From: Rhodospirillales bacterium RIFCSPLOWO2_02_FULL_58_16
Lineage (GTDB): Bacteria > Pseudomonadota > Alphaproteobacteria > Rhodospirillales > 2-02-FULL-58-16
Reading direction: 5' to 3'
Length of the DNA stretch: 64,000 nucleotides
NCBI GenBank assembly: GCA_001830425.1
Contig: MIAA01000026.1
Location: forward strand, 16,675-80,674
Positions 11,844 to 61,846 of the stretch are shown here, in pieces (position 1 is the stretch's first letter; every line of letters begins with the position of its first letter). Made by a program: the position numbers and the translations under genes. The notes beneath the pieces were generated by a model. It was not told the DNA's origin and searched no databases. It saw only the letters and a list, made by a program, of their open reading frames with translations.

Positions 11844-11931
11844 TAGGCTGTTCCTTTCAAGCCATGGATTTCATTTAAGCTCTTTATCGCCTATAAACTT
11901 GATCGATATCAAACATCAATAAGGCCGGGAT

Positions 11932-13370: not shown

Positions 13371-13412
13371 GAGGAGTTTATCCTGGTTTCTCTCATCCGC
13401 TATCCGCTGCCG

Positions 13413-13925: not shown

Positions 13926-13928
13926 TTT

Positions 13929-14951: not shown

Positions 14952-14964
14952 GGAATAGACGGGC

Positions 14965-17900: not shown

Positions 17901-18678
17901 TCCTCTGGCGGACGGCGTAAAGCGTCAAGCCGGTGAATTGCGGGCTTCCGGCCTGTCCAAAGAGGAAGCGGAGCGCCGCGCCGCTTTTCGCGTTTTCGGC
18001 TCCAAGCCGGGAGCCTACGGCGCCGGGTTACAGGCTTTGATCGATGAGAAAGGCTGGACAAACGAAGGTGATCTTGCTCGCGCTTACATCGCCTGGGGAG
18101 GCTATGTTTACGGCGCCGCCGCCCATGGCGAGGCCGCTCACGGCCTGTTCGAGGAACGCCTCAGGAATACCGAAGCGGTGGTGCAAAACCAGGACAACCG
18201 CGAACATGATCTGCTCGATTCGGACGACTACTATCAATTTGAAGGAGGCATTGCCTCCGCCGTGCGCCATCTGTCGGGAAATCAGCCCGTTGTCTATCAT
18301 AATGACCATTCCCGCCCGGAAACGCCTAGGATACGCACCTTGGAAGAAGAAGTCGCCCGCGTGGTCCGCGCCCGCGTGGTTAATCCGAAGTGGATCGAGG
18401 GAGTAATGCGTCACGGCTACAAGGGAGCCTTTGAAATGGCGGCGACCGTAGACTACCTGTTTGCCTTTGCCGCCACCGCGCTCTGTGTCAAAGATCATCA
18501 CTTTGACGCCGTCTTTGAGGCTTACCTCAAGGACGATAAAGTTCGTGAGTTCATGGACAACAATAACCCGGCGGCGTTAAAGGAAATAAGCGAACGCCTG
18601 ATCGAGGCGCAGGAAAGAGGCCTGTGGCGGCCCCGGCTGAACAGTACGCGCATGTTGCTGAACGAACTGGTGAAATAA
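14965..18678 (+). CDS. cobN: cobaltochelatase large subunit
   Basis: 1237-aa CobN/Mg-chelatase H family protein in a cobalamin cluster. Confidence 0.9.
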   Translation: MHLLAAQPGGVSDGSQAVDLRQSPGDIVVLSAADTELSCLAAAYGGLSGKEFPSLRLTGLLHLAHNMSVDLYVETVIAAARLVVVRLLGGRGYWPYGLEQVAAQCRRRSIPAAFLPGDDQPDAELSAFSTLPGEAVHRLWQYCVHGGIDNAGNFLRFSADLIGHKSEWDEPRPLLRAGLYWPDNALTTINANWKKGQAVAAVVFYRALVQAGNLKAVDALIKGLAGAGVNPLPIFVSSLRDPVAAATLEEILERAGCDVVLNATGFAVSSPGGRRSTPFDAVSSPVLQVIFAGSNKEDWSKGDHGLSTRDIAMNVALPEVDGRIISRAVSFKGLKRRDLNCEIDIIDYEPVADRIEFVSALAANWARLRRTAISERRVALVLANYPNRDGRMGNGVGLDTPAATVVVLKAMIGAGYDVRDVPDNGGELIARLSAGPTNNTHVLAGREITETLPLEGYLVFFDALPAAVRRLVGERWGSPKDDPFFVDGAFAVPAFRCGNAAVCLQPARGYNIDPASGYHDPDLPPPHGYLAFYAWLRFRFAANAVVHMGKHGNLEWLPGKGLALSADCFPEAALGPMPNIYPFIVNDPGEGTQAKRRSQAVIIDHLTPPLTRAESYGPLRNLEQLVDEYYEAAGLDPRRLKVLRSQILDLCRVTGLGDDCGMDDGDDDDAALKKLDSYLCELKEMQIRDGLHIFGETPVGQQLTDLLVALVRTPRGSGAGDASLPRALAGDLGLDFDPLDCDMSAPWKGPKPKMLNGDDPWRTCGDTVERLEKLAGDLVSGTRSPGEKWAATRSVLEQLDKTIRPAVEASGHAEIKGLLNALDGKFVEPGPSGAPTRGRPDVLPTGRNFYSIDPRTAPTPAAWMLGWKSAALLVERHMQEHGVWPKTMALTAWGTSNMRTGGDDIAQALALMGVRPIWDSSSRRVSGFEIMPARLLDRPRVDVTLRISGFFRDAFPGLIDLFDSAVRAVAALDESAQTNPLADGVKRQAGELRASGLSKEEAERRAAFRVFGSKPGAYGAGLQALIDEKGWTNEGDLARAYIAWGGYVYGAAAHGEAAHGLFEERLRNTEAVVQNQDNREHDLLDSDDYYQFEGGIASAVRHLSGNQPVVYHNDHSRPETPRIRTLEEEVARVVRARVVNPKWIEGVMRHGYKGAFEMAATVDYLFAFAATALCVKDHHFDAVFEAYLKDDKVREFMDNNNPAALKEISERLIEAQERGLWRPRLNSTRMLLNELVK

Positions 18679-43223: not shown

Positions 43224-44408
43224 ATGACCTCGGTTGCGCCTTTCTCATGGGACGATCCGTTCCTGCTGGAGACCCAGTTGCGGGAAGAGGAACGGCTGGT
43301 GCGCGACGCCGCCCGCAACTACGCCCGCTCCAGGCTGATGCCGCGCATCGTTCAGGATAACCGCGACGAGCGTTTTGATCGGGCGATCATGACCGAGATG
43401 GGCGGGCTGGGACTTCTCGGCGCGACCCTGCCCGAAAAATACGGCGGCGCCGGGGTCAATCATGTGTGCTACGGGCTGGCGGCGCGTGAGATCGAGGCCG
43501 TCGATTCCAGCTATCGCTCGGCGATGAGCGTCCAGTCGTCGCTGGTCATGCATCCGATCTATGCCTACGGAACCGAGGAACAACGCCTGAAATATCTGCC
43601 CAGGCTGGCCGCCGGTGAATGGGTGGGCTGCTTCGGCCTGACCGAGCCGGACCACGGCTCAGACCCCGGATCAATGATCTGCAAGGTAGAAAAGACCGCC
43701 GGCGGCTACCGCCTCAACGGCGCCAAGATGTGGATCACCAACGCCCCCATCGCCGACGTGATGATAATCTGGGCCAAACTTGACGGCGTCATTCGCGGCT
43801 TCATTCTGGAGAGCGGCATGAAGGGGCTGACCACCCCCACGATCAAAGGCAAGTTTTCGCTGCGCGCCTCGATCACCGGCGAGATCGTCATGAACGATGT
43901 CTTCGCGCCCGATGACCATATCCTGCCCGGCGCCGAGGGCTTGGCCGGACCTTTCGGCTGTCTCAACAAGGCCCGCTACGGCATCGCCTGGGGAGCGCTG
44001 GGAGCCGCCGAGTCGTGCTGGCTCGCCGCCCGCAACTACACCATGGAGCGCAAACAATTCGGCCGACCGCTGGCCGCCAACCAGTTGATCCAGAAGAAAC
44101 TGGCCGACATGCAGACGGAAATCGCCATCGGCCTGCAAGCCTGTCTGAGGGTGGGCCGGATGCTGGATGACGGCGTATGCGCCCCCGAGGCCGTTTCACT
44201 GATCAAGCGCAATTCCTGCGGCAAGGCGCTCGACATCGCCCGCATGAGCCGCGATATGCACGGCGCCAACGGCATCGCCGACCACTTCCACGTCATCCGC
44301 CATCTGATGAACCTGGAAAGCGTCAACACCTACGAGGGCACTCACGACATCCACGCCTTGATCCTCGGCCGCGCCCAGACCGGGATTCAGGCCTTCACGG
44401 CGGACTAG
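43224..44408 (+). CDS. gcdH: glutaryl-CoA dehydrogenase (acyl-CoA dehydrogenase family)
   Basis: 394 aa with [23 protein letters not shown] and a C-terminal [14 protein letters not shown] motif typical of GCDH. Confidence 0.85.
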
Positions 44409-44725
44409 AGAGCAGCGCCGCCGACGGGCCGCACCGGCAGTTGCTCCCAGTTCTCGCCGGACAGCAAAAGACAACTGACGCCGTCGGGCCGCGTTATGAT
44501 GATTGAAAAGGTTCCGGTATCCGATTTGAACACTTCAATCACCTCGCCGCCGGAAGACAACCCCATGGACACAGGTTCCTCGGCAAACCTATTCTTCAGT
44601 TCCGCTATGCCCTTGTTGCGGTCGCCGCAATCCATCAACACCTGAACTTGCGCCGACGCAACCGTCGGCAACGCCGACAGCACGAGGGTCAGAACGGACA
44701 GAAATTCTTTCTTATACCGAGTCAT
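44405..44725 (-). CDS. small secreted hypothetical protein
   Basis: It has a signal peptide ([14 protein letters not shown]) and is 106 aa. It is convergent with gcdH and overlaps it by 4 nt. Confidence 0.5.
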
Positions 44726-44863: not shown

Positions 44864-45373
44864 ATGAAGGCCGATTCAAAACCAAAGGAAGCCGCCATGA
44901 AAATAACATCAATGTTGATAGCTGTTTTTGCTATTTTCTTTTCCTTTCAAGGAATTGCCGCTGCATACCCGTCGAATCAACAGGAAGCGCGACAAGATAC
45001 CCATGATAATCGACTGCAATTAGCGCAAAAACGTCCTGAGGGCCGCAAAGACAACGTCAAAGGGCGTGCGGGCAACCGCCAAGATAAGGCCGAAGGGCGT
45101 GCGGGCAACCGCCAAGATAAAATCGAACAGCGCCGGGAAAACGTCCAAGAGCGCATGGGTGATCGTCGAGACAAGATCGAACAACGCCGGGAAAACGTCC
45201 AAGAGCGCATGGGCGACCGCCAAGACAAGATCGAACAGCGCCGGGAAAACGTCCAAGAGCGCATGGACGACCGCCGGGACAAGATCGAACAGCGCCGGGA
45301 AAACACCCAAGAACGCATGGAAGACCGCCGGGACAAGATCGAACAGCGCCGGGAAAATATCAAAGAAAAGTGA
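44864..45373 (+). CDS. secreted charged tandem-repeat protein
   Basis: A signal peptide is present ([23 protein letters not shown]). About four copies of the 20-aa unit [18 protein letters not shown] follow. AAGAGG lies upstream of ATG 44864, and ATG 44897 is an alternative start. Confidence 0.65.
45062..45358 (+). repeat. tandem repeats inside the CDS: 2 x 33 bp then about 4 x 60 bp
   Basis: GGGCGTGCGGGCAACCGCCAAGATAA occurs twice. The unit ATCGAACAGCGCCGGGAAAACGTCCAAGAGCGCATGG...GACAAG then repeats at a 60-nt period. Confidence 0.9.
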
Positions 45374-51294: not shown

Positions 51295-51477
51295 TTACAT
51301 TTTCCCGGCCCTTTCCGCCTTCCCGGCCCAAAAGGCCAGGAGCATAAACAGAGCCGCGCCCGAACCCCAGGCCAACGCGCCGCCCGGCATATTCAGCATG
51401 GGAACCAGGGCATAGGCCAGAGCCAATAACAGCCAGACGACCGCTACCAGCACCAACAGCTTGATATCGTTACTCAT
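51295..51477 (-). CDS. small 2-TM membrane protein (accessory subunit of either the oxidase-like complex or the symporter)
   Basis: 60 aa with two hydrophobic helices. GAGGAGG lies 7 nt upstream of the ATG, and only 13 nt separate it from the stop of the oxidase-like gene. Confidence 0.5.
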   Translation of the reverse strand: MSNDIKLLVLVAVVWLLLALAYALVPMLNMPGGALAWGSGAALFMLLAFWAGKAERAGKM

Positions 51478-51490
51478 ACCTTGGTCCTCC

Positions 51491-53158
51491 TCAATGACCG
51501 GCGGCGCCGCCGGCGATCACCGGCAGCGACGTCATCAGCGTAAACGCCGCCCAGGTGGCGGCTCCCATCAGGAAAAGAAGAAACGCCACCGAGGTCGAGC
51601 CGCCCCATGCCGCTTGCCGGAGCGCCAGAGGCTCAGGCGCCGGAGCAAGCGCCGTTTTCGCCCTTATGGCTTTGCGGCCCAGGCCCACAAGCGGCAGCGC
51701 CGCCCCGAGAGTCAGAAGCACAAGGCCGACGGCCATTACCGCCGCTCCCGCGCCGATGATCTGGGACAGCATCGTCCAGGCAACGGGCGCGGCGCCTTCA
51801 TAGCCGGCATCGAGCACCCGCCTGGGCATACCCTGCGCCCCCGCCGCCGCGCCGGCGAGTCCGAACAGCAGCAGGCCCGCCGTGATCAGCCAGGGCAGGC
51901 GGGAAAGCAACTTCGGCGCCGGGGCGTTCTGACCCGTCAGATGCGGAAGCAGGCGCAGCATGACCGCCAGCAGCGTCATCGTCACCACCCCCAGAGTAAT
52001 AAAGTGGAAAGCGCCGGGGACGAAGAAGGTGTCCGACAGCAGGCCGGCCAGTTTCTCCTGGATCAGGACGAAGGCCAGAATGCCGCCCAGGGCGAGGTTC
52101 ACCACCGCCGCTCCCAGCGCGTTCGTGGCCGGATCGCTCCAGTCGAGGCTGCGTATCCAGCCGAACCATCCTTTTGCTCCCTTGGCCCGCGCATGCGCCT
52201 CCAGCGATGCCGTCGTCACCAGAAAGGCGGCGATGGTGGGAACGCCTATGAACAGCGACAGGAGCGATCCCAGCACCAGCACCAGAGGATCAAGACCCGG
52301 CTCCAGGAACATGTGATAGAGCGAGGTCGGCGGCACGAAGACCAGATAGAGCGTGAAGACGATCTTCGAGAAATTGCTGCCGAACACCGAACGCGCCCCC
52401 GAAATCTCGGGCAACAGCAGGGTCCAGGCGAGCATGGCGCCCAGCAGCGGCAGATAGTGCATGTTGTGAAACAGCACATGCCACAGCGTGACATGATCGG
52501 CGGGGAACTCTTCCCATCCCGCCGCCCACAGCGCCGCCGGCAGAAAGGCGTTGGCGAGCGTTGCCGCGCTTACCAGCACCAGTCCGCCCCAGAGTACGGC
52601 TCCGAACCCCGGACCCGACCACTCCCCGCCCCGGCTTCGTTTCGCCGCCATCAGGGTGGCGATGGCGGGCATGGTCAGCGCCGCCAGTCCGAGCGCCTGC
52701 ACCAGATAACCGAGATAGAAGAGAAAGGCGCCCAAGCGTTCCTCGCCCGCCAATTCCGGGGAGCCGTCATAAAGCAGCGGCGTTCCCGACAGCGTTCCCG
52801 TCGCCTGAAGGGCAAAGGCGATCAGCATCAAAGCCCCCCCGGCCCAGCCCAGTCCGTTAAGCGCCAGCGGCGCCCGGCGTTCTTTGGCCGCCAGCACCAG
52901 AAGCAGCGCTCCCTGCGCCAGCGACAGCCAGTGAAAGAACACCGCCACCCCGTGCATGGTCAGCACCCGATAGCCGGTTTCGGGGAGTTCGGGCCGGGCA
53001 ATGCCGTTGCGCGCCATGGCTGCCCATAGTCCCATGAACAGGCCTAAAAACAAGGCGGCCAGAGACAGCGTGAACAGGGCACGGATCAAATGCCGGTCAC
53101 GCGGGGCGATCGCTTCCATCGCCTCGCCGAGGGAGATGTCTTGATGTTTGATTGTCAT
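51491..53158 (-). CDS. heme-copper oxidase subunit I-like protein, divergent
   Basis: 555-aa polytopic protein starting at ATG 53158 (GGGAGG upstream). It has LTMHG (helix II), FHNMHY (His-x3-Tyr), SLYHMF and GAFHF motifs at ba3-like positions. Confidence 0.7.
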   Translation of the reverse strand: MTIKHQDISLGEAMEAIAPRDRHLIRALFTLSLAALFLGLFMGLWAAMARNGIARPELPETGYRVLTMHGVAVFFHWLSLAQGALLLVLAAKERRAPLALNGLGWAGGALMLIAFALQATGTLSGTPLLYDGSPELAGEERLGAFLFYLGYLVQALGLAALTMPAIATLMAAKRSRGGEWSGPGFGAVLWGGLVLVSAATLANAFLPAALWAAGWEEFPADHVTLWHVLFHNMHYLPLLGAMLAWTLLLPEISGARSVFGSNFSKIVFTLYLVFVPPTSLYHMFLEPGLDPLVLVLGSLLSLFIGVPTIAAFLVTTASLEAHARAKGAKGWFGWIRSLDWSDPATNALGAAVVNLALGGILAFVLIQEKLAGLLSDTFFVPGAFHFITLGVVTMTLLAVMLRLLPHLTGQNAPAPKLLSRLPWLITAGLLLFGLAGAAAGAQGMPRRVLDAGYEGAAPVAWTMLSQIIGAGAAVMAVGLVLLTLGAALPLVGLGRKAIRAKTALAPAPEPLALRQAAWGGSTSVAFLLFLMGAATWAAFTLMTSLPVIAGGAAGH

Positions 53159-53169
53159 TGTCGCCTCCC

Positions 53170-53889
53170 TCAAACCACGTCGATGCGGGCGGTCATGGTG
53201 CGGTCGTGGTAAGCGCCGCAATAGACCGTGCAATAGACAAGATGCGAACCTCTTTCGGTGAAGGTTATGTCGCGCTCCGCCACTGCGCCCGGACGCAGAC
53301 GGTTGATCAGACTGCCTTTTCCTACTTGAATCGAGGCGCCGTGGCTGACGTCGAGCGCCATCATGCTGAAACGGTAGCTTTTCCCCATTTCCAGCTTCAG
53401 CCACGCGGGATCGAATCCCCATTGATAGGCCATCAGGTAGACCTTGGCCCCGTCATCGGCCTCAGCGACCGCGCCGTGCATATCGTGCGTCGTCTGGCCT
53501 TGCGGCATGGAAGGCATGTTATGCGTTGCCGACATGCCGTGTCCGGCGTGGGGGTCGAGGACGGCTGGTTCGGGTGAAAAGCCGGGGAACACGCTGCCGT
53601 CCGCCTGTTTCCAGCGTTCGGCATGGGTCTTTACAAGTCGGCGGAATTCGTCAGGCGTCGGTCCCTGGACCGGCGCCCCGTGGCCGCCATGACCGTTCAT
53701 GGCTTCCGGTTGGGCTTCCGGTTGGGGCGCCCCGTGGCCGCCATGCTCATCCGGATTCGTTTTTGTTTTGCTTTTCGTCGCTCCCAGGGCCGTCCAGACG
53801 CCGTAAAGGCCCAGTATTCCAAGGCTTGCCGCCACTACGAAGCCCCGTCGCGTGGACAGGTTTCGGGCGTGATCATGCTCACGTGTCAT
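53170..53889 (-). CDS. cupredoxin (oxidase subunit II-like) protein with His/Met-rich region
   Basis: It has a Tat-like N-terminus (STRRGFVVAASLGILG), two HGGHGAP repeats and the stretch HAGHGMSATHNMPSMPQGQTTHDMHG. The C-terminus reads DVSHG...YCTVYCGAYHDRTM, a CuA-like motif. Confidence 0.7.
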   Translation of the reverse strand: MTREHDHARNLSTRRGFVVAASLGILGLYGVWTALGATKSKTKTNPDEHGGHGAPQPEAQPEAMNGHGGHGAPVQGPTPDEFRRLVKTHAERWKQADGSVFPGFSPEPAVLDPHAGHGMSATHNMPSMPQGQTTHDMHGAVAEADDGAKVYLMAYQWGFDPAWLKLEMGKSYRFSMMALDVSHGASIQVGKGSLINRLRPGAVAERDITFTERGSHLVYCTVYCGAYHDRTMTARIDVV

Positions 53890-53962
53890 CGCTTTTGCTC
53901 CAATATCGTCGTTGATGAATAAGACTCCCCGGGACGAATAGGCCTCCCGAGGGGTAAGGAAT

Positions 53963-54319
53963 TCAGACGATGATTCGGGGCGGAGCGGGATCGGGGATAA
54001 GGGTGCGGCCCGAAAGCGGGCGGGACTCGCCCGGCATAAGGCGCAGCGGGGGGTGAGTCTTGACGCTCGCCGCCGGCGTCGCCCCGTCCGGTAATGGAGC
54101 GGGGCAACAGACCAGGGCGTAGCCGGATGACGAAATTGTCCCGTCGGGGGCCTGAGTGTTCAGGGGGGCGTGCTGTTCATGATGCCGGTCAACGGGAATG
54201 ATATCAGCCGCGCCGCTCAAGTGGCGGGCATGCGCGCTCCCCGCTCCGGCCAGGGCGGCGATTACCAACATCGCCGTCAAGGCGTATGCGCACCGGCGAA
54301 GACTTAATCGAAACACCAT
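53963..54319 (-). CDS. secreted hypothetical protein
   Basis: 118 aa with a signal peptide (AMLVIAALAGAGSAHA), first gene of the minus-strand cluster. Confidence 0.45.
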   Translation of the reverse strand: MVFRLSLRRCAYALTAMLVIAALAGAGSAHARHLSGAADIIPVDRHHEQHAPLNTQAPDGTISSSGYALVCCPAPLPDGATPAASVKTHPPLRLMPGESRPLSGRTLIPDPAPPRIIV

Positions 54320-54439
54320 GGCCGGAACCTTAGTCGGAGCGGACGAGGCCTGTCAATTGCTCATAGATTGATTGTCCCGTAATTCTGTCGCAATTTTTTA
54401 CATTTCCGGGTATGATTCGGCTTACGCGACGATGATTGA

Positions 54440-54691
54440 ATGGTCTTTAAGATATGGAGGCCCGGCGTGGTCGGTTGCTCTCATGACGCTCCTTTCTGGC
54501 GTTCCAGGACCGGCGTCGCTCTGCTGGCGTTCCTCGCTTTTGCCGGCGTATTGCTGGTTTTTGAGCACTGGGCGCATCTGGCGGGAGCGTTGCCGCTGTT
54601 GTTGCCGTTGTTGATTTGCATCGGCATGCATTTCTTCATGCATGGCGGTCACGGCCACGGCGGCCACGGCTCTGCCGACAAGAAGGAGTGA
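54440..54691 (+). CDS. DUF2933-like small membrane protein with His-rich tail
   Basis: It has two TM helices and a C-terminal CIGMHFFMHGGHGHGGHGS. The alternative start GTG 54468 has GGAGG 6 nt upstream. Confidence 0.6.
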   Translation: MVFKIWRPGVVGCSHDAPFWRSRTGVALLAFLAFAGVLLVFEHWAHLAGALPLLLPLLICIGMHFFMHGGHGHGGHGSADKKE

Positions 54692-54696
54692 CGGCG

Positions 54697-55338
54697 ATGA
54701 CCGACGCCGCTCCCGCCTACGGTTTGTGGCTGCTCGTTATCGTTAACTCGGCTGTGTTCATTCTGTTCGCCGCCAGCTTCAGCCGCCCGAAGGATGTCCG
54801 CGACTGGCGTTCGCTCGGCGCCTTTTCAGCCTTCGTGGTGGCCCTCTTCGCCGAGATGTACGGTTTTCCGCTGACTATATACCTGCTGTCGGGTTGGCTG
54901 GGCGACCGTTATCCGGCGCTCGATCCCTTCGGCCATGACGCCGGCCATTTGTGGTCAACCCTGTTCGGGCTTGAGGGTGACCCTCACTTCAGCCCGCTGC
55001 ACATCCTCAGCAACCTGCTTATCGTCGCCGGATTCATCATCATTGCCAGGGCGTGGCATGTGCTGCATGCCGCCCAAGCCGGGGGTGAGCCGGCGGTCAC
55101 AGGCCCTTACGCCGTGATCCGTCATCCCCAGTATATGGGGTTCATCGCCGTGCTGCTGGGCTTCCTGTTGCAATGGCCGACCCTGCTGACGCTGCTGATG
55201 TTCCCTGTGCTGGTCGTCATGTATGTCCGTCTGGCAAGAACCGAGGAGCGCGAAGCCCGAGACCGCTTCCCCGTGCGTTACGCCGATTACGTCGCTCAAG
55301 TCCCCGCCTTCATCCCCCATATCGGGGGAATGAAATGA
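54697..55338 (+). CDS. isoprenylcysteine carboxyl methyltransferase (ICMT/PEMT) family membrane protein
   Basis: The motif GPYAVIRHPQYMGFIAVLLGFLLQWPT...EEREARDRF is present. I chose ATG 54697 as the start. Confidence 0.75.
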   Translation: MTDAAPAYGLWLLVIVNSAVFILFAASFSRPKDVRDWRSLGAFSAFVVALFAEMYGFPLTIYLLSGWLGDRYPALDPFGHDAGHLWSTLFGLEGDPHFSPLHILSNLLIVAGFIIIARAWHVLHAAQAGGEPAVTGPYAVIRHPQYMGFIAVLLGFLLQWPTLLTLLMFPVLVVMYVRLARTEEREARDRFPVRYADYVAQVPAFIPHIGGMK

Positions 55339-55374
55339 TGCCTTCGCCTGCAACCATTTATCAAGGAGTTTCCC

Positions 55375-56460
55375 ATGCCTGTGGACCCGGTTTGCAAGAT
55401 GCAAGTGACTCCGGCGGCGGCGGCGGCCGGCATTGAGTTCGAGGGAGAGCAGATTTATTTCTGCTCCTTGGGCTGTCGTGACCGTTTTCTGGCCGATCCG
55501 GCCTACTTTCGTGCGGCCGGCGGCGCATCCGGCCTGAAATCCGAGGGACATTCGTGTTGCGACAAGCGGATATCGGCGTCCGGGCAATTCACATGGATGT
55601 CGTTCGGGGCGGCGGCGGGCGTCGGTTTATCGGGAACAGCCGCGCTGCTGATCCTTTATTTCGGTCTGTTGACCCTGGTCTCGGGATGGTCGTTCACCCT
55701 TGACCAGTTCCGCGATTTTGGGCCGTTCATCGTCGCGCTTGCGGTGGGGTTCGGCATCCAGGTAGGTCTGTACGTCTATCTTCGCCGCGCCCTGCATGCC
55801 GCCCATTCGGGGAAAGTGGTTGCCGTCACCGGCGCCACCTCCGGCGCGGCCATGGTGTCTTGCTGTACGCACTATCTGGTCAATCTGCTGCCGGCGCTCG
55901 GCGCCGCCGGGCTGGTTTCGCTGGTCAGTCAGTACCAGATCGAACTGTTCTGGTTCGGTCTGGCCGCCAATCTTGCCGGAATTGTCTATATTGCACGCCA
56001 ACTGGCGGCTTTTATTCATGCCGACTTCGGCAATCCGCAGATGGCGGCGGGTTTGCTGCTGACGGCATTCATCGGCGCGGCATCCTTAAGCTTGCCCGCT
56101 TCCGTCATGGCGCAAAACGCGATGCTGACGCCCCTGGAGAATAGGGAAGGGCGGGTAACGGTCAAGGTAACGCCGCAGATGCTGTCCGCATCGGCGAAAC
56201 TTTGGCAGTTCCAAGTGGTCCTCGATACGCATTCAGTCGCATTGGATCAGGATATGTTGGCCGTCGCCGTGCTGGTTGACTCTGCCGGGGGCGAGCACAA
56301 GCCGGCGGCCTGGGATGGCGACCCGCCCGGCGGCCACCACCGCCAAGGGCTTCTGACATTCAAGCCGACGGCTCCCGTTCCCTCCACGGTGTTGCTGAAA
56401 ATTCGCACCGTGGGCGGCGTTGTCGAGCGCTCGTTCACATGGAAACTTGGTTCTCCTTAA
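55375..56460 (+). CDS. YHS/TRASH-domain membrane protein
   Basis: The N-terminus reads MPVDPVCKMQV...YFCSLGCRDRF, a YHS/TRASH metal-binding motif. Five or six TM helices and a soluble C-terminal domain follow. Confidence 0.7.
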   Translation: MPVDPVCKMQVTPAAAAAGIEFEGEQIYFCSLGCRDRFLADPAYFRAAGGASGLKSEGHSCCDKRISASGQFTWMSFGAAAGVGLSGTAALLILYFGLLTLVSGWSFTLDQFRDFGPFIVALAVGFGIQVGLYVYLRRALHAAHSGKVVAVTGATSGAAMVSCCTHYLVNLLPALGAAGLVSLVSQYQIELFWFGLAANLAGIVYIARQLAAFIHADFGNPQMAAGLLLTAFIGAASLSLPASVMAQNAMLTPLENREGRVTVKVTPQMLSASAKLWQFQVVLDTHSVALDQDMLAVAVLVDSAGGEHKPAAWDGDPPGGHHRQGLLTFKPTAPVPSTVLLKIRTVGGVVERSFTWKLGSP

Positions 56461-56462
56461 GC

Positions 56463-56491
56463 TTGACCGTAATGCGGCGAGAGGTTATTCA
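56463..56491 (+). promoter_or_regulatory. candidate sigma-70 promoter for the peptide/rSAM pair
   Basis: TTGACC (56463-56468), 17 nt, TATTCA (56486-56491), immediately after the YHS-gene stop. The -10 element is weak. Confidence 0.3.
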
Positions 56492-56542
56492 TTCAGGCGC
56501 GGAGACCTGACGGGGCAATTGAACGACCGGCAATCCGACGGT

Positions 56543-56586
56543 AAAGGGTTGCGGTGAGTCGTTACGGCTCACCGAGGCCCTTTTTT
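56543..56586 (+). terminator. terminator-like hairpin with T6 (ends the YHS operon and/or attenuates the peptide/rSAM leader)
   Basis: AAAGGG-ttgc-GGTGAG-tcgttacgg-CTCACC-gagg-CCCTTTTTT. The T-run ends 20 nt before the peptide ATG. Confidence 0.55.
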
Positions 56587-56606
56587 AATGTGCAGGGAGA
56601 AAACTG

Positions 56607-56759
56607 ATGACCAAAGCGAATAAAGCGACCGCCAACGGCAAAACCGACAAGTCCCCGAAAGATATTATCGCCTATCGCAAGAGCTGTGACGCCGAAGGCA
56701 CCGGCCTGTCTCATTACATCCTGATGGATAAAAAGCCGACCGCCGGCAAGTCTGAATGA
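56607..56759 (+). CDS. 50-aa putative RiPP precursor peptide (not in the supplied ORF track)
   Basis: ATG 56607 has GGGAGA 6 nt upstream. The product is MTKANKATANGKTDKSPKDIIAYRKSCDAEGTGLSHYILMDKKPTAGKSE. TGA 56757-56759 overlaps the ATG of the rSAM gene (ATGA). Confidence 0.6.
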   Translation: MTKANKATANGKTDKSPKDIIAYRKSCDAEGTGLSHYILMDKKPTAGKSE

Positions 56760-58165
56760 CTCAAGCCGATCTCGCCCCGCGTTCTGCGGAGGCGTCGCCG
56801 TCGGGCCGCTATTTCAACAGCGGCGCCGGTCCCGCCCTACAGTGCATCGACATCGGTCACGAGACCTATATCGGCGTCGTCGATCCGGACACGGCGTTCT
56901 GGTCATTAGTGCCCAAAGATCGGCTGGCCGAGACTCTGGCCGGCGGTCCGCTGCTTGACGAGTACCGTAAAAAATCAGCCGGTTTCGCCGATGAGATGGA
57001 GATGCTGCGCTTTAACCTGAAGCCGTCGGCGGTTTATTTTAATCCGACGGAGCGCTGCAATCTGGACTGCACCTACTGCTACATTCCCGGCGACATGCGC
57101 AAGCACGGTCGCCACATGACCGGCGACGAAGTGATGGCGGCCCTGGAAAAGCTCAAGGCCTACTTCAAGAAGACGGTGCCTGAAGGCCGCTTGCCCCAGG
57201 TTATCTTTCACGGGGCCGAGCCTATGCTCAACCGCGAGGCGGTTTTCGCCGGCATCGAGGCCTTCGCCGATACCTTTCGCTTCGGCGTGCAGACCAACGC
57301 CACCTTGCTGGACGGCGAGTCCATTGATTTCCTGACCGGCCACGGTTGCGGCATCGGCCTGTCGCTGGACGGTCACGAGGCATCCATCGCCGACAGGACG
57401 CGCTCGACCTGGGGCGGCGCCGGAACCTTCGACGCGGTGGTCAAGGCCATTGAACGCCTGCGCGGCTATGACGGCTTTAACGTCATCTGCACCATTACCC
57501 GGGAGAACGTCAAGAACCTGGTCAAGATGGTCGATTTCCTGCACGGCCACGAGGTTCCCGCCTGTATGCTGAACGTCATCCGCTGCACCTTGCCGAGGGC
57601 GCGGGGCATCAAGGCCGGGGACGCCGAAACGGCAGAACACTTCATCGCCGCCGTCGAGCGCAGCCATCAGCTTTACCGGCAAACCGGGCGCAAGATGATA
57701 GTCGCCAACTTCGCCAATATCCTGATCTCGATCATCGCCCCGACGGCGCGCCGCTTGATGTGCGACATCTCGCCCTGCGGCGGCGGACGCAGTTTCTTCG
57801 CCCTGGCCCCCGACGGCGGCATGTTCCCGTGCAGCGAGTTCATCGGCTTGCCCGCCTTCAACGGCGGCAACCTGTTCACCGATCCGGTTGAAAAAATCCT
57901 GGAAAGCCCGCAGTTCAAACATGTAACCGGGCGCAAGGTGGAAGATATATCGCCATGTAATCGCTGCGCCATCCGTCACTTTTGCGGCTCTCCGTGTCCC
58001 GCCGAAGCCCACGAAATGAACGGCGGCATGGATAAAATCGGCGCTTATTGCGAATTCTACGAAGAACAGGCCCGCTATGCCTTCCGCCTGATCGCCGACG
58101 GCAAGGAAAATGATTTTTTGTGGGAAGGCTGGGATAACGGCACGGAAACGGTGTTCGGACTTTAG
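56756..58165 (+). CDS. radical SAM / SPASM-domain peptide-modifying enzyme (putative RiPP maturase)
   Basis: The radical-SAM motif is CNLDCTYC (Cx3Cx2C). The SPASM signature is CGGGRSFFALAPDGGMFPC, then CNRCAIRHFCGSPC, then a final YC. An N-terminal extension of about 95 aa precedes the rSAM core. Confidence 0.85.
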   Translation: MTQADLAPRSAEASPSGRYFNSGAGPALQCIDIGHETYIGVVDPDTAFWSLVPKDRLAETLAGGPLLDEYRKKSAGFADEMEMLRFNLKPSAVYFNPTERCNLDCTYCYIPGDMRKHGRHMTGDEVMAALEKLKAYFKKTVPEGRLPQVIFHGAEPMLNREAVFAGIEAFADTFRFGVQTNATLLDGESIDFLTGHGCGIGLSLDGHEASIADRTRSTWGGAGTFDAVVKAIERLRGYDGFNVICTITRENVKNLVKMVDFLHGHEVPACMLNVIRCTLPRARGIKAGDAETAEHFIAAVERSHQLYRQTGRKMIVANFANILISIIAPTARRLMCDISPCGGGRSFFALAPDGGMFPCSEFIGLPAFNGGNLFTDPVEKILESPQFKHVTGRKVEDISPCNRCAIRHFCGSPCPAEAHEMNGGMDKIGAYCEFYEEQARYAFRLIADGKENDFLWEGWDNGTETVFGL

Positions 58166-58434
58166 TCCGCTTCGTCCGGCGTTAATGTCTTCATGGCCAG
58201 GGCGTGAAGTCCGGCGGCGAACTCATCAGCGAGGGCGGCATAGACCATCCGCTGACGCTCGATGCGGGATTTTCCGGCGAAGGCTGAAGAAACGATCTTC
58301 AGGCTGAAATGACTCTCGCCGGCGGCCCTTGAGCCGGCATGTCCGGCATGACGGATTGAATCATCATTGACCTCGATGCTCAACGGCGACAAGGCCTTAT
58401 CCAGTTTCTCCTTGATGGCGGCGGCAACGCTCAT
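58162..58434 (-). CDS. bolA: BolA family protein
   Basis: It reads MSVAAAIKEKLDKALSPLSIEVNDDSIRHAGHAGS...HALAMKTLTPDE. ATG 58434 is the start, and the 162-aa ORF is an upstream extension. Confidence 0.85.
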   Translation of the reverse strand: MSVAAAIKEKLDKALSPLSIEVNDDSIRHAGHAGSRAAGESHFSLKIVSSAFAGKSRIERQRMVYAALADEFAAGLHALAMKTLTPDEAD

Positions 58435-58491
58435 TGTATTCAATGCTCCTTCGGCTTGAAAAACGTCTCTTAACAGACCATAGTTGACGTC

Positions 58492-59064
58492 ATGGCGAAC
58501 AGTAAATCCAATTATAACATCAAGCGCGCCGAAACGCCGGATAACGAACCCTGCCGCTGCGCCTGGCCGGCTTGCCGGGAAGCGGGCGAGTTCCGGGCGC
58601 CGCGCTCCCGCGAGGAACTGAGAAGTTACCACTGGTTCTGCATGGAACATATCCGCGCCTACAACAAGTCATGGAACTACTACGACGGCATGACCGATGA
58701 AGAAGTCGAGGCCGATATTCGCAAAGACACCGTCGGTCGAAGGCCGACATGGCCGATGGGCGCCGCCAGGCTTATCTACGCTTTCGACCCACAGGCCGCG
58801 TTTAATGATTTCGGCTCCGGCGACGGATCAGGGAACAGGCGCGGCAAAACTCAAGAGGCGGATGCGCCGGAGAGAAAGGCGATGGCGGTTCTTGATCTGC
58901 TGCCGCCGATCACTCCCGGCGCAGTCAAGGCCCGCTACAAGCAACTGGTCAAGCGCCACCACCCCGACGCCAACGGCGGCGATAAGGCGTCCGAGGAAAA
59001 ATTCAAACAGATCAGCCAGGCCTACAAGACGGTCATGGCCCATCTTAGAGTGCATCAGGAATAA
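58492..59064 (+). CDS. J-domain (DnaJ-like) protein
   Basis: The C-terminal J domain reads [20 protein letters not shown]...[11 protein letters not shown], with the HPD motif. The N-terminus is Cys-rich (CRCAWPAC...WFCMEH). Confidence 0.85.
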
Positions 59065-59066
59065 TC

Positions 59067-60068
59067 ATGCAAGGCGTCGCCGAAACAACTTCACCGGGGT
59101 TTCCCCTGCAAGTCCCCGATATTGCCGTCTCCGTGCGTCAAACGTTCGGCATCGACAGCGATATGCGGGCTCCGGCCTTCAGCAGGGCCGAGGAGCATGT
59201 GCCGGAGATCGACGGCGCCTATCAGTTCGATCATGACACGACGCTGGCCGTCCTCGCCGGGTTTGCCCATAACCGCCGGGTCATGATCCAGGGCTATCAC
59301 GGCAGCGGCAAGTCAACTCATATCGAGCAGGTGGCGGCGCGGCTGAACTGGCCGTGCGTCCGCCTTAACCTGGACAGTCATATCAGCCGCATCGACCTTA
59401 TCGGCAGGGACGCCATTGTTATTCGCGACGGCGAGCAGGTTACCGAGTTCAAGGAGGGGATGCTGCCCTGGGCGCTACAAAACCCGGTCGCCCTGGTTTT
59501 TGACGAATACGACGCCGGAAGGCCGGACGTGATGTTCGTCATCCAGCGCATCCTTGAGGCTAACGGCAAGCTGACCCTGCTTGACCAGAACAAGGTGATG
59601 ACTCCTCATCCTTCATTTCGCCTGTTTTCAACCACCAATACGGTCGGGCTGGGCGACGCCACAGGTCTTTATCACGGCGTTCAGCAGATCAACCAGGGCC
59701 AGATGGATCGCTGGAATGTGGTCGCCACCCTCAATTACCTGCCGCCCGAGGACGAGATCAGGATCGTGCTGGCCAAGGCGCCGTCCTACGATAACAAGGA
59801 AGGCCGCAGGACGGTAGCCGCCATGGTGGAAATGGCGGGCATGACCCGCACCGGCTTTATGAACGGCGATATATCAACCGTGATGTCGCCGCGCACCATA
59901 ATCACCTGGGCCGAAAACGGCGAAATCTTCGGCGACCTGGAATTCGCCTTCCGCCTGACCTTCCTCAACAAGTGCGACGAGCTGGAGCGTTCGGTGATCG
60001 CCGAATACTACCAACGCTGCTTCGGCGCCGATTTGCCGGAATCGGTGGCCAAGGCGCCGCTGCTTTAG
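59067..60068 (+). CDS. cobS: cobaltochelatase subunit CobS (AAA+/MoxR-like ATPase)
   Basis: Walker [10 protein letters not shown] and Walker B ALVFDEYD are present. Length 333 aa. The gene is followed by cobT. Confidence 0.9.
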
Positions 60069-60079
60069 GGTCCAAACTC

Positions 60080-61846
60080 ATGCCACAGGCGGAGCCTCCC
60101 TCGGAACTGCTCAAGCGCGTCACCGCCGCCGCGTTGGTCGGCGTCGCCGGAGCGCCCAGGGCGCCGGATCGAATATTCGGCGGCAACGCCGCGCTTTTGC
60201 CCGAGCCGCCGCGCCGCGCCATCGTTAAAGATGACGTAACCAGACTGCGGGGCGCCGCCGACGCCGTGGCCGTGCGCTTTCGCCATCATGACGAAGATGC
60301 GCATCATCGCCTCATGCCTTCCGGCGTCGAAGCCCGTCAGGTTTACGAGGCCGCAGAGCAGGCGCGTCTTGAAGCCTTGGGCGGTCGCCGTCTGTCGGGA
60401 GTCGCCGATAATCTGGGGGCGCGTCTTGAGGAGCATTGCCGGGATTTCTCCGGTATCGCCGACCGCGAGGCGACGCCCATCGCCGACGCCGTAGCCCTGC
60501 TGGTGCGCGAAGTTCTCACCGGATTGCCGCCGCCGGCCTCGGCCGGCGCCATGATGGAGGCGTGGCGTCCCTGGCTGGCCGAGCGGATGGGCAAGGGGCT
60601 TGGCCGACTGGCCGATTATATTGACGACCAGGACGCTTTCGCCGGAACCATGACCGAGATGATCTCCCGTCTGGAGCTTTCCGATGCGGATCAGGCCCCG
60701 GATTCGGATCACGGCGAAAGCGAACAAGACGCCGGTTGTGATGACGAGGATCATCAGCCGGACGCCGCCACCGCCGATCAGGAGTCTGTTGACGGCGGCC
60801 TGGGCGGGACGGACGTAGACAAAGCAAAAGCGCCGCCCATGCCCGGCGAAGACATGCCCGCCGATCCCGGCCATGCCCGCCGTCCCGATAATGCCGCTTC
60901 GGCGCAAGTTGTTTACCGCGCCTACACCACCGCTTTTGATCAAGTGATCAACGCCGACAAAATATGCGACTGCCGGGAGCTTACCAGACTGCGCGCCCAG
61001 CTTGACCAACAGCTTTCCCATCTGTCGGGAATGGTAAGACAGCTTGCCAACCGTCTTCAGCGCCGCCTGCTGGCCAAGCAAACCAGATCATGGAATTTCG
61101 GCCTTGATGAGGGCTTGCTGGATTCGGCGAGGCTGGCGCGGGTGATCGTCGATCCGGTTCATCCTCTTTCTTTCAAGCAGGAGGCCGAGACCGACTTTCG
61201 TGACACTGTGGTCGGCCTGCTGATAGATAACTCCGGCTCGATGCGCGGACGTCCGATAACGGTGGCCGCCATGTGCGCCGATATTCTGGCGAGAACCCTG
61301 GAGCGTTGCGGCGTCAAGGTGGAAATTCTCGGCTTCACCACCCAGGCCTGGAAGGGCGGTCATGCGCGTGAAAAGTGGGTGGCCGACGGCAAGCCGGACC
61401 ATCCCGGACGCCTCAACGATCTCTATCATATCATTTACAAGAGCGCCGACGCCCCCTGGCGGCGGACGCGGCGTAACCTGGGGCTGATGCTGCGCGAAGG
61501 CCTGCTTAAGGAAAACATCGACGGCGAGGCCCTGTTGTGGGCGCACTCCCGCCTGCTGGCGCGGCGCGAACAGCGGCGCATCCTGATGGTTATCTCCGAC
61601 GGCGCTCCGGTCGATGACGCCACCCTGTCGGCCAATGCCGGCGTCTATCTGGAGGCCCACCTGCGTCAGGCCATATCATGGATCGAGACCCGCTCCGAGG
61701 TCGAACTCACCGCTATCGGCATCGGCCATGACGTTAAACGTTATTACCGACGGGCCGTCACCATCTCCGGCGCCGAAGACCTGGGCGGCGCCATGATGCA
61801 GGAACTGACCGAACTGTTTGATGAGAAATCCTCCCCCTTGCTTTAA
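60080..61846 (+). CDS. cobT: cobaltochelatase subunit CobT (vWA domain)
   Basis: It has an acidic middle region and a C-terminal vWA domain with the MIDAS motif [12 protein letters not shown] chose ATG 60080 ([13 protein letters not shown]) as the start. Confidence 0.9.

What the first reader, a model, noticed from the sequence alone, without database searches (positions are those of the whole stretch)
56607..58165. Unannotated 50-codon ORF translationally coupled to a radical-SAM/SPASM enzyme: a minimal RiPP-like precursor+maturase cassette
Seen in sequence: an ORF too short for the supplied track runs from ATG 56607 (GGGAGA 6 nt upstream) to TGA 56757-56759. It encodes MTKANKATANGKTDKSPKDIIAYRKSCDAEGTGLSHYILMDKKPTAGKSE. 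Its stop overlaps the ATG (56756) of the 469-aa ORF in an ATGA junction. That protein has the radical-SAM motif CNLDCTYC about 100 residues in. It also has a complete SPASM signature: CGGGRSFFALAPDGGMFPC (Cx12Gx4C), then CNRCAIRHFCGSPC (Cx2Cx5Cx3C), then a final Cys. These are the ligands for two auxiliary 4Fe-4S clusters. Established knowledge: an rSAM/SPASM enzyme with an N-terminal extension of about 90-100 aa (often an RRE/PqqD-like peptide-binding domain) and an adjacent tiny ORF is the hallmark of RiPP maturases. Examples are PqqE, AlbA, MftC, and the SCIFF/ranthipeptide, streptide and triceptide enzymes. Inference: the Lys-rich peptide is the substrate for a thioether or C-C crosslink. 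Its candidate core is YRKSCDAEGTGLSHY, with a single Cys (C27) and Tyr/His residues. No protease, exporter or immunity gene is attached, and there is no GG-type leader. It therefore does not look like a bacteriocin locus and may be an intracellular redox- or metal-related modified peptide. I cannot tell from sequence alone whether this rSAM subfamily is already catalogued.
Basis: partly seen in the sequence, partly recalled or inferred. Interest (0 to 1): 0.85.

Follow-up and report, generated by a model that had tools for sequence, protein, structure and literature searches.

The report
Known CbpA/CbpB peptide-maturase cassette
The small ORF and the radical-SAM enzyme are real and belong together, but they are a member of the already catalogued CbpA/CbpB family, a peptide-plus-maturase pair of unknown chemistry that most bacteria keep under a vitamin-B12 riboswitch, of which this copy retains only a remnant.

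Summary
A 50-codon ORF (56607-56759) has a GGGAGA Shine-Dalgarno and overlaps, in an ATGA junction, a 469-aa radical-SAM/SPASM gene (56756-58165).

The pair is already catalogued. The peptide matches NCBIfam TIGR04164 "modified peptide precursor CbpA" (64 bits, cutoff 35). The enzyme matches TIGR04163 "peptide-modifying radical SAM enzyme CbpB" (709 bits, cutoff 375). Anaerobic sulfatase maturase scores only 116 against a cutoff of 349.

In 88 related loci from many phyla, a peptide with the core [VI]IAxRKxCxAxG[TV]GLSHY[IV]LMD[KR]K lies directly upstream. Stop and start overlap in 71 of 88 loci.

At least 70 of 76 informative related loci have a cobalamin riboswitch just before cbpA. The only recurrent operon partners are the lower-ligand attachment genes cobT, cobS, cobC and cobU.

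In this window the riboswitch is cut at its 5' end. Only the end of the B12 box and the terminator hairpin remain (56497-56591). An 85%-identical relative still has the whole riboswitch.

I found no experimental paper. The chemistry (thioether, formylglycine or C-C link) and the role in cobamide metabolism are inferred, not shown.

Verdict: a new member of a known family, of moderate interest.

The parts
56497..56542 (+). 3' remnant of a cobalamin riboswitch: the end of the B12 box (GAGACCTG) and the linker with the conserved AATCCGAyGG. The 5' ~130 nt of the aptamer are missing.
   Evidence: An nhmmer profile of the B12-box-to-RBS region from 7 proteobacterial relatives (window excluded) gives a single hit in the 64-kb window, at 56502-56591, E 1.8e-7. 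Alignments A1 and A4 agree. Rfam finds no riboswitch here even at E<=10.
56543..56586 (+). Intrinsic-terminator hairpin (17 pairs with one mismatch) plus a U6 tract. It is the retained expression platform of the riboswitch and ends 20 nt before the cbpA start codon.
   Evidence: Predicted energy -26.8 kcal/mol, z -5.07, 0 of 200 shuffles fold as well. It is homologous to the -31.1 kcal/mol hairpin of the 85% relative L081, with different stem sequences but pairing kept.
56595..56600 (+). Shine-Dalgarno GGGAGA, 6 nt before the cbpA ATG.
   Evidence: Read directly from the sequence.
56607..56759 (+). cbpA, a 50-aa precursor peptide with a Lys-rich variable N-terminus.
   Evidence: TIGR04164 64.2 bits against a cutoff of 35, E 5.2e-18. 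Homologues lie upstream of cbpB in 85 of 85 sources. 98 representative clusters were found, nearly all 30-134 aa with the motif at the C-terminus.
56667..56735 (+). Conserved module of CbpA, residues I21-K43 (IAYRKSCDAEGTGLSHYILMDKK). Invariant residues are R24, C27, G31, G33, L34, S35 and H36.
   Evidence: Column counts over 85 sequences; synonymous-codon diversity at the invariant residues; tandem two-module precursors P0122 and P0123.
56756..58165 (+). cbpB, a 469-aa radical-SAM/SPASM peptide maturase whose ATG overlaps the cbpA stop (ATGA).
   Evidence: TIGR04163 708.9 bits against a cutoff of 375, E 2e-213. It is 59-68% identical to relatives across phyla. It deviates at 3 of 199 highly conserved columns, within the family range of 1-10.
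56831..57019 (+). N-terminal domain of CbpB (residues ~26-88) with a beta-beta-beta-alpha-alpha topology, RRE-like.
   Evidence: AF2 model with pLDDT 85 and pTM 0.87; strands at 29-31, 38-43 and 48-53, helices at 54-61 and 65-86. The Foldseek alignment to CteB covers 454-468 columns, so it includes the N-terminal domain. No Pfam PqqD hit.
57041..57541 (+). Radical-SAM core (residues 96-262) with C101-x3-C105-x2-C108.
   Evidence: Pfam PF04055 E 2.5e-19; the cysteines are invariant in alignments A3 and A5.
57761..58051 (+). SPASM region (residues 336-432) with eight invariant Cys (336, 341, 359, 401, 404, 410, 414, 432), enough for two auxiliary [4Fe-4S] clusters.
   Evidence: Pfam PF13186; invariant columns; alignment to anSME and CteB.

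Best explanation
The locus is a cbpA-cbpB cassette. CbpA is a ribosomal precursor peptide. CbpB is its dedicated radical-SAM/SPASM maturase. The two are translated as a coupled pair.

Shown here:
- Both genes are members of the curated families.
- The peptide module [VI]IAxRKxCxAxG[TV]GLSHY[IV]LMD[KR]K is conserved under protein-level selection in every related locus.
- The pair behaves as a self-contained bicistron that in most bacteria sits directly behind a cobalamin riboswitch, so it is switched off when B12 is plentiful.
- When it has conserved operon partners, they are the lower-ligand activation and nucleotide-loop genes cobT, cobS, cobC and cobU.

Inferred mechanism:
- The N-terminal RRE-like domain of CbpB binds the VIAxRK part of the module.
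- The rSAM cluster cleaves SAM, and the 5'-deoxyadenosyl radical abstracts a hydrogen within the invariant C27...G-x-G-L-S-H-Y stretch. The two auxiliary clusters take up the electron.
- My best guess for the product is an intramolecular thioether from Cys27 to a residue of the GxGLSHY segment (about 0.4). The alternatives are anSME-like oxidation of Cys27 to formylglycine (about 0.2) and a C-C or C-N link at His36/Tyr37 (about 0.25).
- The product stays inside the cell and serves cobamide metabolism when B12 is scarce, most likely at the lower-ligand or nucleotide-loop stage.

Specific to this window: a rearrangement placed a YHS-domain membrane-protein gene 40 nt upstream and removed the 5' two-thirds of the riboswitch aptamer. 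The terminator and RBS were left in place. B12 sensing is therefore lost, and expression depends on read-through of a strong terminator.
For: - Family membership: (CbpA 64.2 bits vs 35; CbpB 708.9 vs 375; next best PapB 133.5, DynA 132.7, anSME 116.4, all far below their cutoffs). NCBI names on homologues agree.
- Peptide conservation. Selection at protein level. Coupling: 71 of 88 overlaps.
- Riboswitch: Rfam RF00174 at 62-87 bits on the + strand upstream of cbpA in 21 of 22 loci; own HMM finds it in 70 of 80 loci, and 4 of the 10 negatives lack enough upstream sequence. It is also present in L081-L084.
- Cobamide context: ORF clustering with NCBIfam; cobT is the only recurrent same-strand downstream gene, in 7 loci; CobT-DMB lies within the flanks of 16 of 88 loci and CobU of 11; the L012 operon is riboswitch-cbpA-cbpB-cobT-cobS-cobC-cobU; L088 lies beside cbiD, cbiG and cbiJ.
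- Architecture: AF2 model; Foldseek top hit CteB over its full length (E 2e-20), then anSME (3e-17); PDB profile search.
- Truncation. The 85% relative has an intact riboswitch at 85.9 bits.
- No decay of CbpB.
Against: - No member of the family has a demonstrated modification. I found no paper, so substrate, chemistry and role all rest on association.
- The N-terminal domain has no sequence match to PqqD/RRE models.
- In most genomes cbpAB stands alone in unrelated context. The link to lower-ligand genes therefore holds for only about 18% of loci, although these come from several phyla (Planctomycetota, Dehalococcoidales, Syntrophales/Smithella).
- A B12 riboswitch also fits a role in uptake, scavenging or a B12-independent substitute.
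- The eight fully conserved SPASM Cys and E361 aligned with anSME Asp277 fit formylglycine chemistry at least as well as a thioether.
- In this window the strong terminator without an aptamer may mean the cassette is hardly expressed.
Confidence: 0.85

Rival explanations
1. The 469-aa protein is an anaerobic sulfatase-maturating enzyme (some databases name homologues that way) and the small ORF is a chance reading frame.
For: Some homologues carry the names 'anaerobic sulfatase-maturating enzyme' or 'putative arylsulfatase regulator'. The core fold is close to anSME (Foldseek E 3e-17, rmsd 3.2 A).
Against: TIGR03942 scores 116.4 bits against a cutoff of 349, whereas CbpB scores 708.9. anSME lacks the N-terminal domain (390 aligned columns against 454-468 for CteB). 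The peptide is present in 85 of 85 loci under protein-level selection. No sulfatase gene was seen among the recurrent neighbours.
Confidence: 0.02
2. The cassette makes a secreted antimicrobial or signalling RiPP.
For: It has the general rSAM/SPASM plus short peptide architecture. Tandem two-core precursors exist (P0122, P0123), a feature common in secreted RiPPs.
Against: The core is nearly invariant across phyla, unlike hypervariable bacteriocin cores. No conserved protease, exporter or immunity gene is present in the window or in 88 loci. Control by a B12 riboswitch points to a metabolic role.
Confidence: 0.05
3. CbpAB belongs to the B12 regulon but does not work in biosynthesis. Its product might scavenge cobalt or corrinoids (a methanobactin-like metallophore or a corrinoid-binding peptide), or it might substitute for a B12-dependent function when B12 is absent.
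For: B12 riboswitches also control transporters and B12-independent isozymes (established knowledge). The invariant Cys, His, Tyr, Met and Asp are typical metal ligands. Most loci stand alone, away from cob genes.
Against: There is no conserved exporter or receptor. The only recurrent operon partners are cobT, cobS, cobC and cobU. The peptide has no signal sequence.
Confidence: 0.3
4. In this particular genome the cassette is a silenced relic. The rearrangement that removed the aptamer left a constitutive terminator, so cbpAB is no longer expressed.
For: A hairpin of -26.8 kcal/mol with a U6 tract ends 20 nt before the start codon, with no aptamer or obvious antiterminator. No consensus promoter was found between the YHS gene and cbpA.
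Against: Both ORFs are intact. CbpA keeps every invariant residue. CbpB deviates at only 3 of 199 conserved columns, mid-range for the family. Read-through from the upstream gene or a weak TTGACC-N17-GTTATT promoter at 56463 is possible. The event could simply be too recent for decay to show.
Confidence: 0.3

Closest known systems
CbpA/CbpB (NCBIfam TIGR04164 'modified peptide precursor CbpA' and TIGR04163 'peptide-modifying radical SAM enzyme CbpB')
   Same: Both genes pass the curated cutoffs. The gene order, the stop/start overlap, the invariant peptide residues and all the cluster cysteines match the family.
   Different: The aptamer of the cobalamin riboswitch that precedes cbpA in about 92% of informative loci is missing here. 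The C-terminal tail after LMDKK is 7 residues, against the usual 2-3. It lies next to bolA, a J-domain gene and the chelatase genes cobS and cobT, an adjacency seen in none of 88 other loci.
CteB/SCIFF and PapB (thioether-forming rSAM/SPASM maturases of ranthipeptides)
   Same: Best solved-structure match over the full length, including an N-terminal peptide-binding-type domain. PapB is the best-scoring characterised HMM (133.5 bits). The substrate has an invariant Cys.
   Different: Only 19-20% identity. Scores are far below the cutoffs (PapB 133.5 vs 340; SCIFF maturase 95 vs 425). CbpA has one Cys, not several. No thioether has been demonstrated.
Anaerobic sulfatase-maturating enzyme (anSME)
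   Same: The core fold is very close (rmsd 3.2 A). The eight SPASM Cys have the same spacing pattern, and E361 aligns with the proposed base Asp277 (alignment; residue roles are from my memory of the anSME literature). CbpA's C-x-[A/P]-x-G recalls the sulfatase C-x-[P/A]-x-R.
   Different: 116 bits against a cutoff of 349. anSME has no N-terminal domain. The substrate here is a dedicated 50-aa peptide, Gly replaces the motif Arg, and no sulfatase is nearby.
PqqA/PqqE and MftA/MftC (cofactor-forming peptide plus rSAM/SPASM systems)
   Same: A short, highly conserved peptide next to an rSAM/SPASM enzyme, intracellular, with no exporter or immunity gene. Conservation is of the kind seen in cofactor precursors rather than antibiotics.
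   Different: No accompanying tailoring genes or peptidase are conserved. The match to PqqE is weak (Foldseek E 1.1e-7). The product is unknown. Regulation by a B12 riboswitch is specific to CbpAB.

Membership tests
CbpB (TIGR04163) | Whole-protein score above the curated cutoff of 375 bits | tested here: met
   708.9 bits, E 2e-213, model positions 1-428 of 428
CbpB (TIGR04163) | Radical-SAM CxxxCxxC motif and a SPASM domain with a full set of cluster cysteines | tested here: met
   C101/C105/C108 and C336, C341, C359, C401, C404, C410, C414, C432 are invariant in 41- and 56-sequence alignments. Pfam PF04055 and PF13186 both match.
CbpB (TIGR04163) | Encoded directly downstream of a CbpA peptide gene | tested here: met
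   ATGA overlap at 56756-59. The same arrangement is seen in 71 of 88 loci as an overlap and in 82 of 88 within 20 nt.
CbpA (TIGR04164) | Score above the curated cutoff of 35 bits, with the conserved core | tested here: met
   64.2 bits; residues 21-44 cover model positions 2-25 of 25. All invariant residues (R24, C27, G31, G33, L34, S35, H36) are present.
CbpAB module as found in most genomes | A cobalamin riboswitch immediately upstream of cbpA. This is typical of the family but not part of the HMM definitions. | tested here: not met
   No Rfam match in the window at gathering score or at E<=10, and no nhmmer aptamer hit. Only a 3' remnant remains, E 1.8e-7. The riboswitch is present in 70 of 80 loci and in L081-L084.
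RRE-dependent RiPP maturases | An N-terminal RiPP recognition element (PqqD-like winged helix) | tested here: inconclusive
   The predicted beta-beta-beta-alpha-alpha topology and the full-length structural alignment to RRE-bearing CteB support it. No PqqD or other Pfam match was found in 10 N-terminal domains at E<=10.
RiPP in general | Demonstrated post-translational modification of the precursor by the adjacent enzyme | not testable with these tools
   No experimental paper was found. Co-expression and MS are needed.
Anaerobic sulfatase maturase (TIGR03942) | Score above the cutoff of 349 bits, and a sulfatase substrate with C/S-x-P/A-x-R | tested here: not met
   116.4 bits. The peptide motif is C-x-A-x-G with an invariant Gly.
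PapB ranthipeptide maturase (NF047865) and SCIFF maturase (TIGR03974) | Score above the cutoffs (340 and 425 bits) | tested here: not met
   133.5 and 95.3 bits

The most novel reading that the evidence does not exclude
The CbpA-derived product is a so far unrecognised peptide-derived component of cobamide metabolism, acting at the lower-ligand or nucleotide-loop stage. It could be a precursor of, or carrier for, a lower ligand, or a small corrinoid- or cobalt-handling peptide. Its conserved His/Tyr/Met/Asp face would be locked in place by a CbpB-made crosslink. That would explain why a riboswitch-cbpA-cbpB module is kept in many phyla with both early and late cobalt-insertion routes, and why it heads the cobT-cobS-cobC-cobU operon in a Dehalococcoidales MAG.
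Probability: 0.35. Interest if true: 0.8.

Novelty: new member of a known kind. Interest (0 to 1): 0.4.

Why it matters
For this window the result is mostly a correct annotation: cbpA and cbpB, plus a broken riboswitch that marks a recent rearrangement.

The family itself is a good open problem.
- It is large. Every one of the top 120 homologue clusters scores 727 bits or more.
- It is spread over many phyla.
- Its peptide is conserved as tightly as a cofactor precursor.
- It is almost always under B12 control.
- I could find no published chemistry or phenotype.

If its product takes part in cobamide assembly or lower-ligand supply, it would fill a gap in a pathway thought to be nearly complete. 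It would also matter for predicting which uncultured anaerobes, such as Dehalococcoidales, Syntrophales and anammox Planctomycetota, can make or remodel B12.

Tried and rejected
- Riboswitch in the window: Rfam on the whole window at gathering score, and on 56000-56800 at E<=10, gave nothing. I first took this as an absence. The alignment and a platform HMM then showed a truncated remnant.
- Adjacency to the chelatase genes cobS/cobT as functional evidence: rejected. None of 88 related loci has CobS, CobT, BolA, the J-domain protein, YHS, CobN or CobW nearby.
- Literature: eight full-text searches (CbpA/CbpB, TIGR accessions, motif strings, riboswitch plus RiPP terms) found nothing relevant. 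One further search call failed on a malformed term. The Haft and Basu 2011 paper is not in the held library under the PMC id I recalled from memory.
- Pfam on the N-terminal 95 residues of ten members, looking for PqqD/RRE: only noise.
- A third conserved gene downstream of cbpB: an all-against-all comparison of 71 same-strand downstream ORFs found only cobT to be recurrent. The aggregated NCBIfam scan agreed.
- Synteny with the 85% relative to map the insertion: the gene upstream of L081's riboswitch has a 43% homologue at window 44405-44725, but the orientation and neighbours differ, so this is not conclusive.
- Two large proteins hit by the peptide search (P0155, P0160) are repeat adhesin-like proteins and the matches are chance.
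- Signs of decay in the window's CbpB: none.
Full report
**1. Observation**

- The ORF starts at ATG 56607, with GGGAGA at 56595-56600 six nucleotides upstream, and stops at TGA 56757-56759.
- It encodes 50 codons: MTKANKATANGKTDKSPKDIIAYRKSCDAEGTGLSHYILMDKKPTAGKSE.
- Its stop overlaps the ATG (56756) of a 469-aa ORF that ends at 58165.
- That protein has CNLDCTYC (C101/C105/C108).
- It also has the SPASM cysteines C341-x12-G-x4-C359, C401-x2-C404-x5-C410-x3-C414 and C432.
- Pfam finds Radical_SAM (residues 96-262) and SPASM (341-404).

A 50-codon ORF means little by itself in this GC-rich DNA. There are 126 ORFs of 30 aa or more in 12 kb, one of them antisense to this very ORF. The case for a gene rests on conservation.

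**2. Identity**

NCBIfam assigns both genes to curated families.
- The peptide is TIGR04164 "modified peptide precursor CbpA" (64.2 bits, cutoff 35, E 5e-18; residues 21-44 cover the whole 25-position model).
- The enzyme is TIGR04163 "peptide-modifying radical SAM enzyme CbpB" (708.9 bits, cutoff 375, E 2e-213).
- The next best models are all far below their cutoffs: PapB 133.5, DynA 132.7, anaerobic sulfatase maturase 116.4 and QhpD 96.

Public gene calls and NCBI names agree: P0121 is a 100%-identical 50-aa protein, and many homologues are named CbpB.

**3. Conservation of the pair**

A scan of one genome per species found 155 relatives, and I kept 80 loci (59-68% identity). They come from Planctomycetota, Verrucomicrobiota, Dehalococcoidales, Nitrospinota, Syntrophales/Smithella, Anaeromyxobacteraceae, Alphaproteobacteria (Blastochloris, Rhodoblastus, Magnetovibrio) and Aromatoleum/Azoarcus.

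- A CbpA-like peptide lies just upstream on the same strand in 78 of 80 loci by tblastn, and in 85 of 85 sources by motif search.
- The N-terminus is variable and Lys-rich.
- The module [VI]IAxRKxCxAxG[TV]GLSHY[IV]LMD[KR]K is nearly fixed. R24, C27, G31, G33, L34, S35 and H36 are invariant. Tyr37 is Phe in 2 of 85.
- The peptide usually ends 2-3 residues after the module. The window's tail, PTAGKSE, is unusually long.
- Invariant residues are written with all their synonymous codons, so selection acts on the protein.
- The stop and start codons overlap in 71 of 88 loci and lie within 20 nt in 82.
- Some precursors carry two tandem modules (P0122, P0123). The roughly 24-residue module is therefore the functional unit.

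**4. The enzyme**

- CbpB is highly conserved, with 199 columns at 90% identity or more in 56 sequences. The window's copy deviates at 3 of them, mid-range for the family (1-10), so there is no sign of decay.
- A profile search of the PDB finds CteB (E 6e-32) and anSME (3e-27), both matching only from residue ~91 onwards.
- An AlphaFold model (pLDDT 85, pTM 0.87) shows an N-terminal domain with three strands and two helices.
- Foldseek aligns the whole protein, N-terminal domain included, with RRE-bearing CteB (E 2e-20, 454-468 columns). anSME, which lacks that domain, aligns over ~390 columns at rmsd 3.2 A.
- No PqqD-type sequence match was found. The RRE assignment is therefore plausible but not proven.
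- The eight invariant SPASM cysteines have the anSME spacing, and E361 aligns with anSME Asp277. The catalytic role of that Asp is from my memory of the anSME literature.

**5.

- Rfam finds a cobalamin riboswitch (RF00174, 62-87 bits) on the same strand, 100-450 nt upstream of cbpA, in 21 of 22 loci scanned.
- An HMM built from these aptamers finds one in 70 of 80 loci. Four of the ten negatives have too little upstream sequence.
- Several Planctomycetota loci carry a second, divergent riboswitch driving cobC and cobU.
- Clustering all neighbouring ORFs shows that the only recurrent neighbours are cobamide genes: DMB phosphoribosyltransferase CobT, ribazole phosphatase CobC, ribazoletransferase CobS, CobU, and occasionally CbiA, CbiG, CbiF and CobD.
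- By tblastn, CobT lies within the flanks of 16 of 88 loci and CobU of 11.
- CobT is the only recurrent same-strand downstream gene, in 7 loci.
- In one Dehalococcoidales MAG the operon is riboswitch-cbpA-cbpB-cobT-cobS-cobC-cobU.
- In many genomes, including Blastochloris viridis, the riboswitch-cbpA-cbpB unit stands alone in unrelated context.

The conserved module is thus riboswitch plus two genes. It is a member of the B12 regulon, and its occasional operon partners point to the lower-ligand and nucleotide-loop stage.

**6. This window's peculiarity**

The window has no riboswitch by Rfam, either at gathering score or at E<=10, and none by my aptamer HMM. Yet aligning the cbpA leader with proteobacterial relatives shows clear homology from about 56497 onwards. 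The homologous part comprises the end of the B12 box (GAGACCTG), the AATCCGAyGG linker, a terminator hairpin and the RBS.

- A profile of that region built without the window hits the 64-kb window once, at 56502-56591, E 1.8e-7.
- The hairpin (56543-56586; -26.8 kcal/mol, z -5.1) corresponds to that of the 85%-identical relative L081 (-31.1 kcal/mol). The stem sequences differ but the pairing is kept.
- L081 still has the complete riboswitch at 85.9 bits.
- In the window a YHS-domain membrane-protein gene ends at 56460, 40 nt before the remnant. It belongs to a COX1-like/DUF2933/ICMT-like/YHS cluster.

The 5' two-thirds of the aptamer were therefore lost in a recent, lineage-specific rearrangement. 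B12 sensing must be gone. Whether the remaining terminator silences the cassette cannot be told from sequence.

The neighbouring bolA, J-domain gene and chelatase cobS/cobT are not found near cbpAB in any other locus. That adjacency is best treated as coincidence. The organism's other cob genes (cobT, cobS, cobC, cobU, cobW, cobN) lie at 10.8-18.7 kb.

**7. Mechanism**

Shown here:
- family membership;
- coupling;
- the conserved peptide module;
- the cluster ligands;
- riboswitch control in relatives.

Inferred:
- CbpB binds the VIAxRK part of the module through its N-terminal domain.
- It abstracts a hydrogen within the C27...GxGLSHY stretch and forms either a Cys27 thioether, formylglycine at Cys27, or a crosslink at His36/Tyr37.
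- The thioether is suggested by the nearest HMMs and nearest structure.
- Formylglycine is suggested by the C-x-A/P-x-G motif, E361 aligned with Asp277, and the anSME-like set of eight Cys.
- A His36/Tyr37 crosslink is suggested by the similarity to DynA and to cyclophane-forming enzymes.

I rank these at about 0.4, 0.2 and 0.25.

The near-invariance of the module, the tandem-module precursors and the absence of any export or immunity gene make a cofactor-like or ligand-like intracellular product more likely than an antibiotic.

**8. Novelty and verdict**

No paper on CbpA/CbpB was found in the held library. The family is catalogued but, as far as I can tell, uncharacterised.

The window's locus is a new member of a known kind with a broken regulator. 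Interest is moderate (0.4). The finding itself is ordinary annotation. The family-level question, what a B12-repressed peptide maturase does, is a real and testable one.

Noticed in passing
window 56461-56606: The cbpA leader is a 5'-truncated cobalamin riboswitch. The end of the B12 box, the linker and the terminator survive, and the aptamer is gone. The breakpoint lies at about 56461-56500, right after the stop of the YHS-domain gene. A weak TTGACC-N17-GTTATT promoter-like site sits at 56463.
   Followed up: yes
window 10818-18678: A cobamide gene cluster: cobT (DMB-PRTase, minus strand), cobS/cobV ribazoletransferase, cobC, cobU, cobW and cobN (late cobalt-insertion route). No cobalamin riboswitch or any other Rfam family was detected anywhere in the 64-kb window at gathering score.
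   Followed up: partly
window 58162-61846: A block of bolA (minus strand), a J-domain protein, and chelatase cobS and cobT. The bolA ORF is over-extended (the BolA domain covers residues 83-160 only). Its stop overlaps the cbpB stop convergently by a few bases, with no terminator between them. The listed chelatase CobT ORF starts at GTG 59972, overlapping cobS, but the model match begins at residue 69. It scores 757.6 bits, just under its cutoff of 759.05.
   Followed up: partly
window 51491-56460: A possibly metal-related cluster upstream of cbpA: a divergent COX1-like protein (643 aa), a 239-aa and a 118-aa protein without family hits, DUF2933, an ICMT/PEMT-like methyltransferase, and a 361-aa membrane protein with an N-terminal YHS domain. 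None of these occurs next to cbpAB elsewhere.
   Followed up: partly
window 44405-44725 (minus strand): A small secreted protein (106 aa), 43% identical to the gene that sits directly upstream of the intact riboswitch in the 85% relative L081. This could mean that about 12 kb (44.7-56.5 kb) was inserted in this lineage, but the orientation and neighbours differ.
   Followed up: partly
window 44864-45373: A secreted 169-aa protein made of highly charged tandem repeats (…[17 protein letters not shown]…). Its function is unknown.
   Followed up: no
P0122, P0123: CbpA homologues with two tandem copies of the whole conserved module in one 75-76-aa precursor. This suggests that each ~24-residue module is processed as an independent unit.
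   Followed up: partly
L001, L005, L007, L009, L014, L030, L033, L044 (about 5200-5550, minus strand): In Planctomycetota a second cobalamin riboswitch points the other way, back to back with the cbpA riboswitch. It drives a divergent operon that includes cobC, cobU and cobT homologues.
   Followed up: partly
window 56975-58012 (minus) and 51461-53029 (plus): Long antisense ORFs (345 and 522 aa) opposite cbpB and the COX1-like gene. These are shadow frames typical of high-GC DNA, not genes.
   Followed up: no
A2 alignment members: Two related loci have a ThiH/HydG-like tyrosine-lyase-type radical SAM gene among the same-strand genes downstream of cbpB. I did not identify which loci or examine them further.
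   Followed up: no
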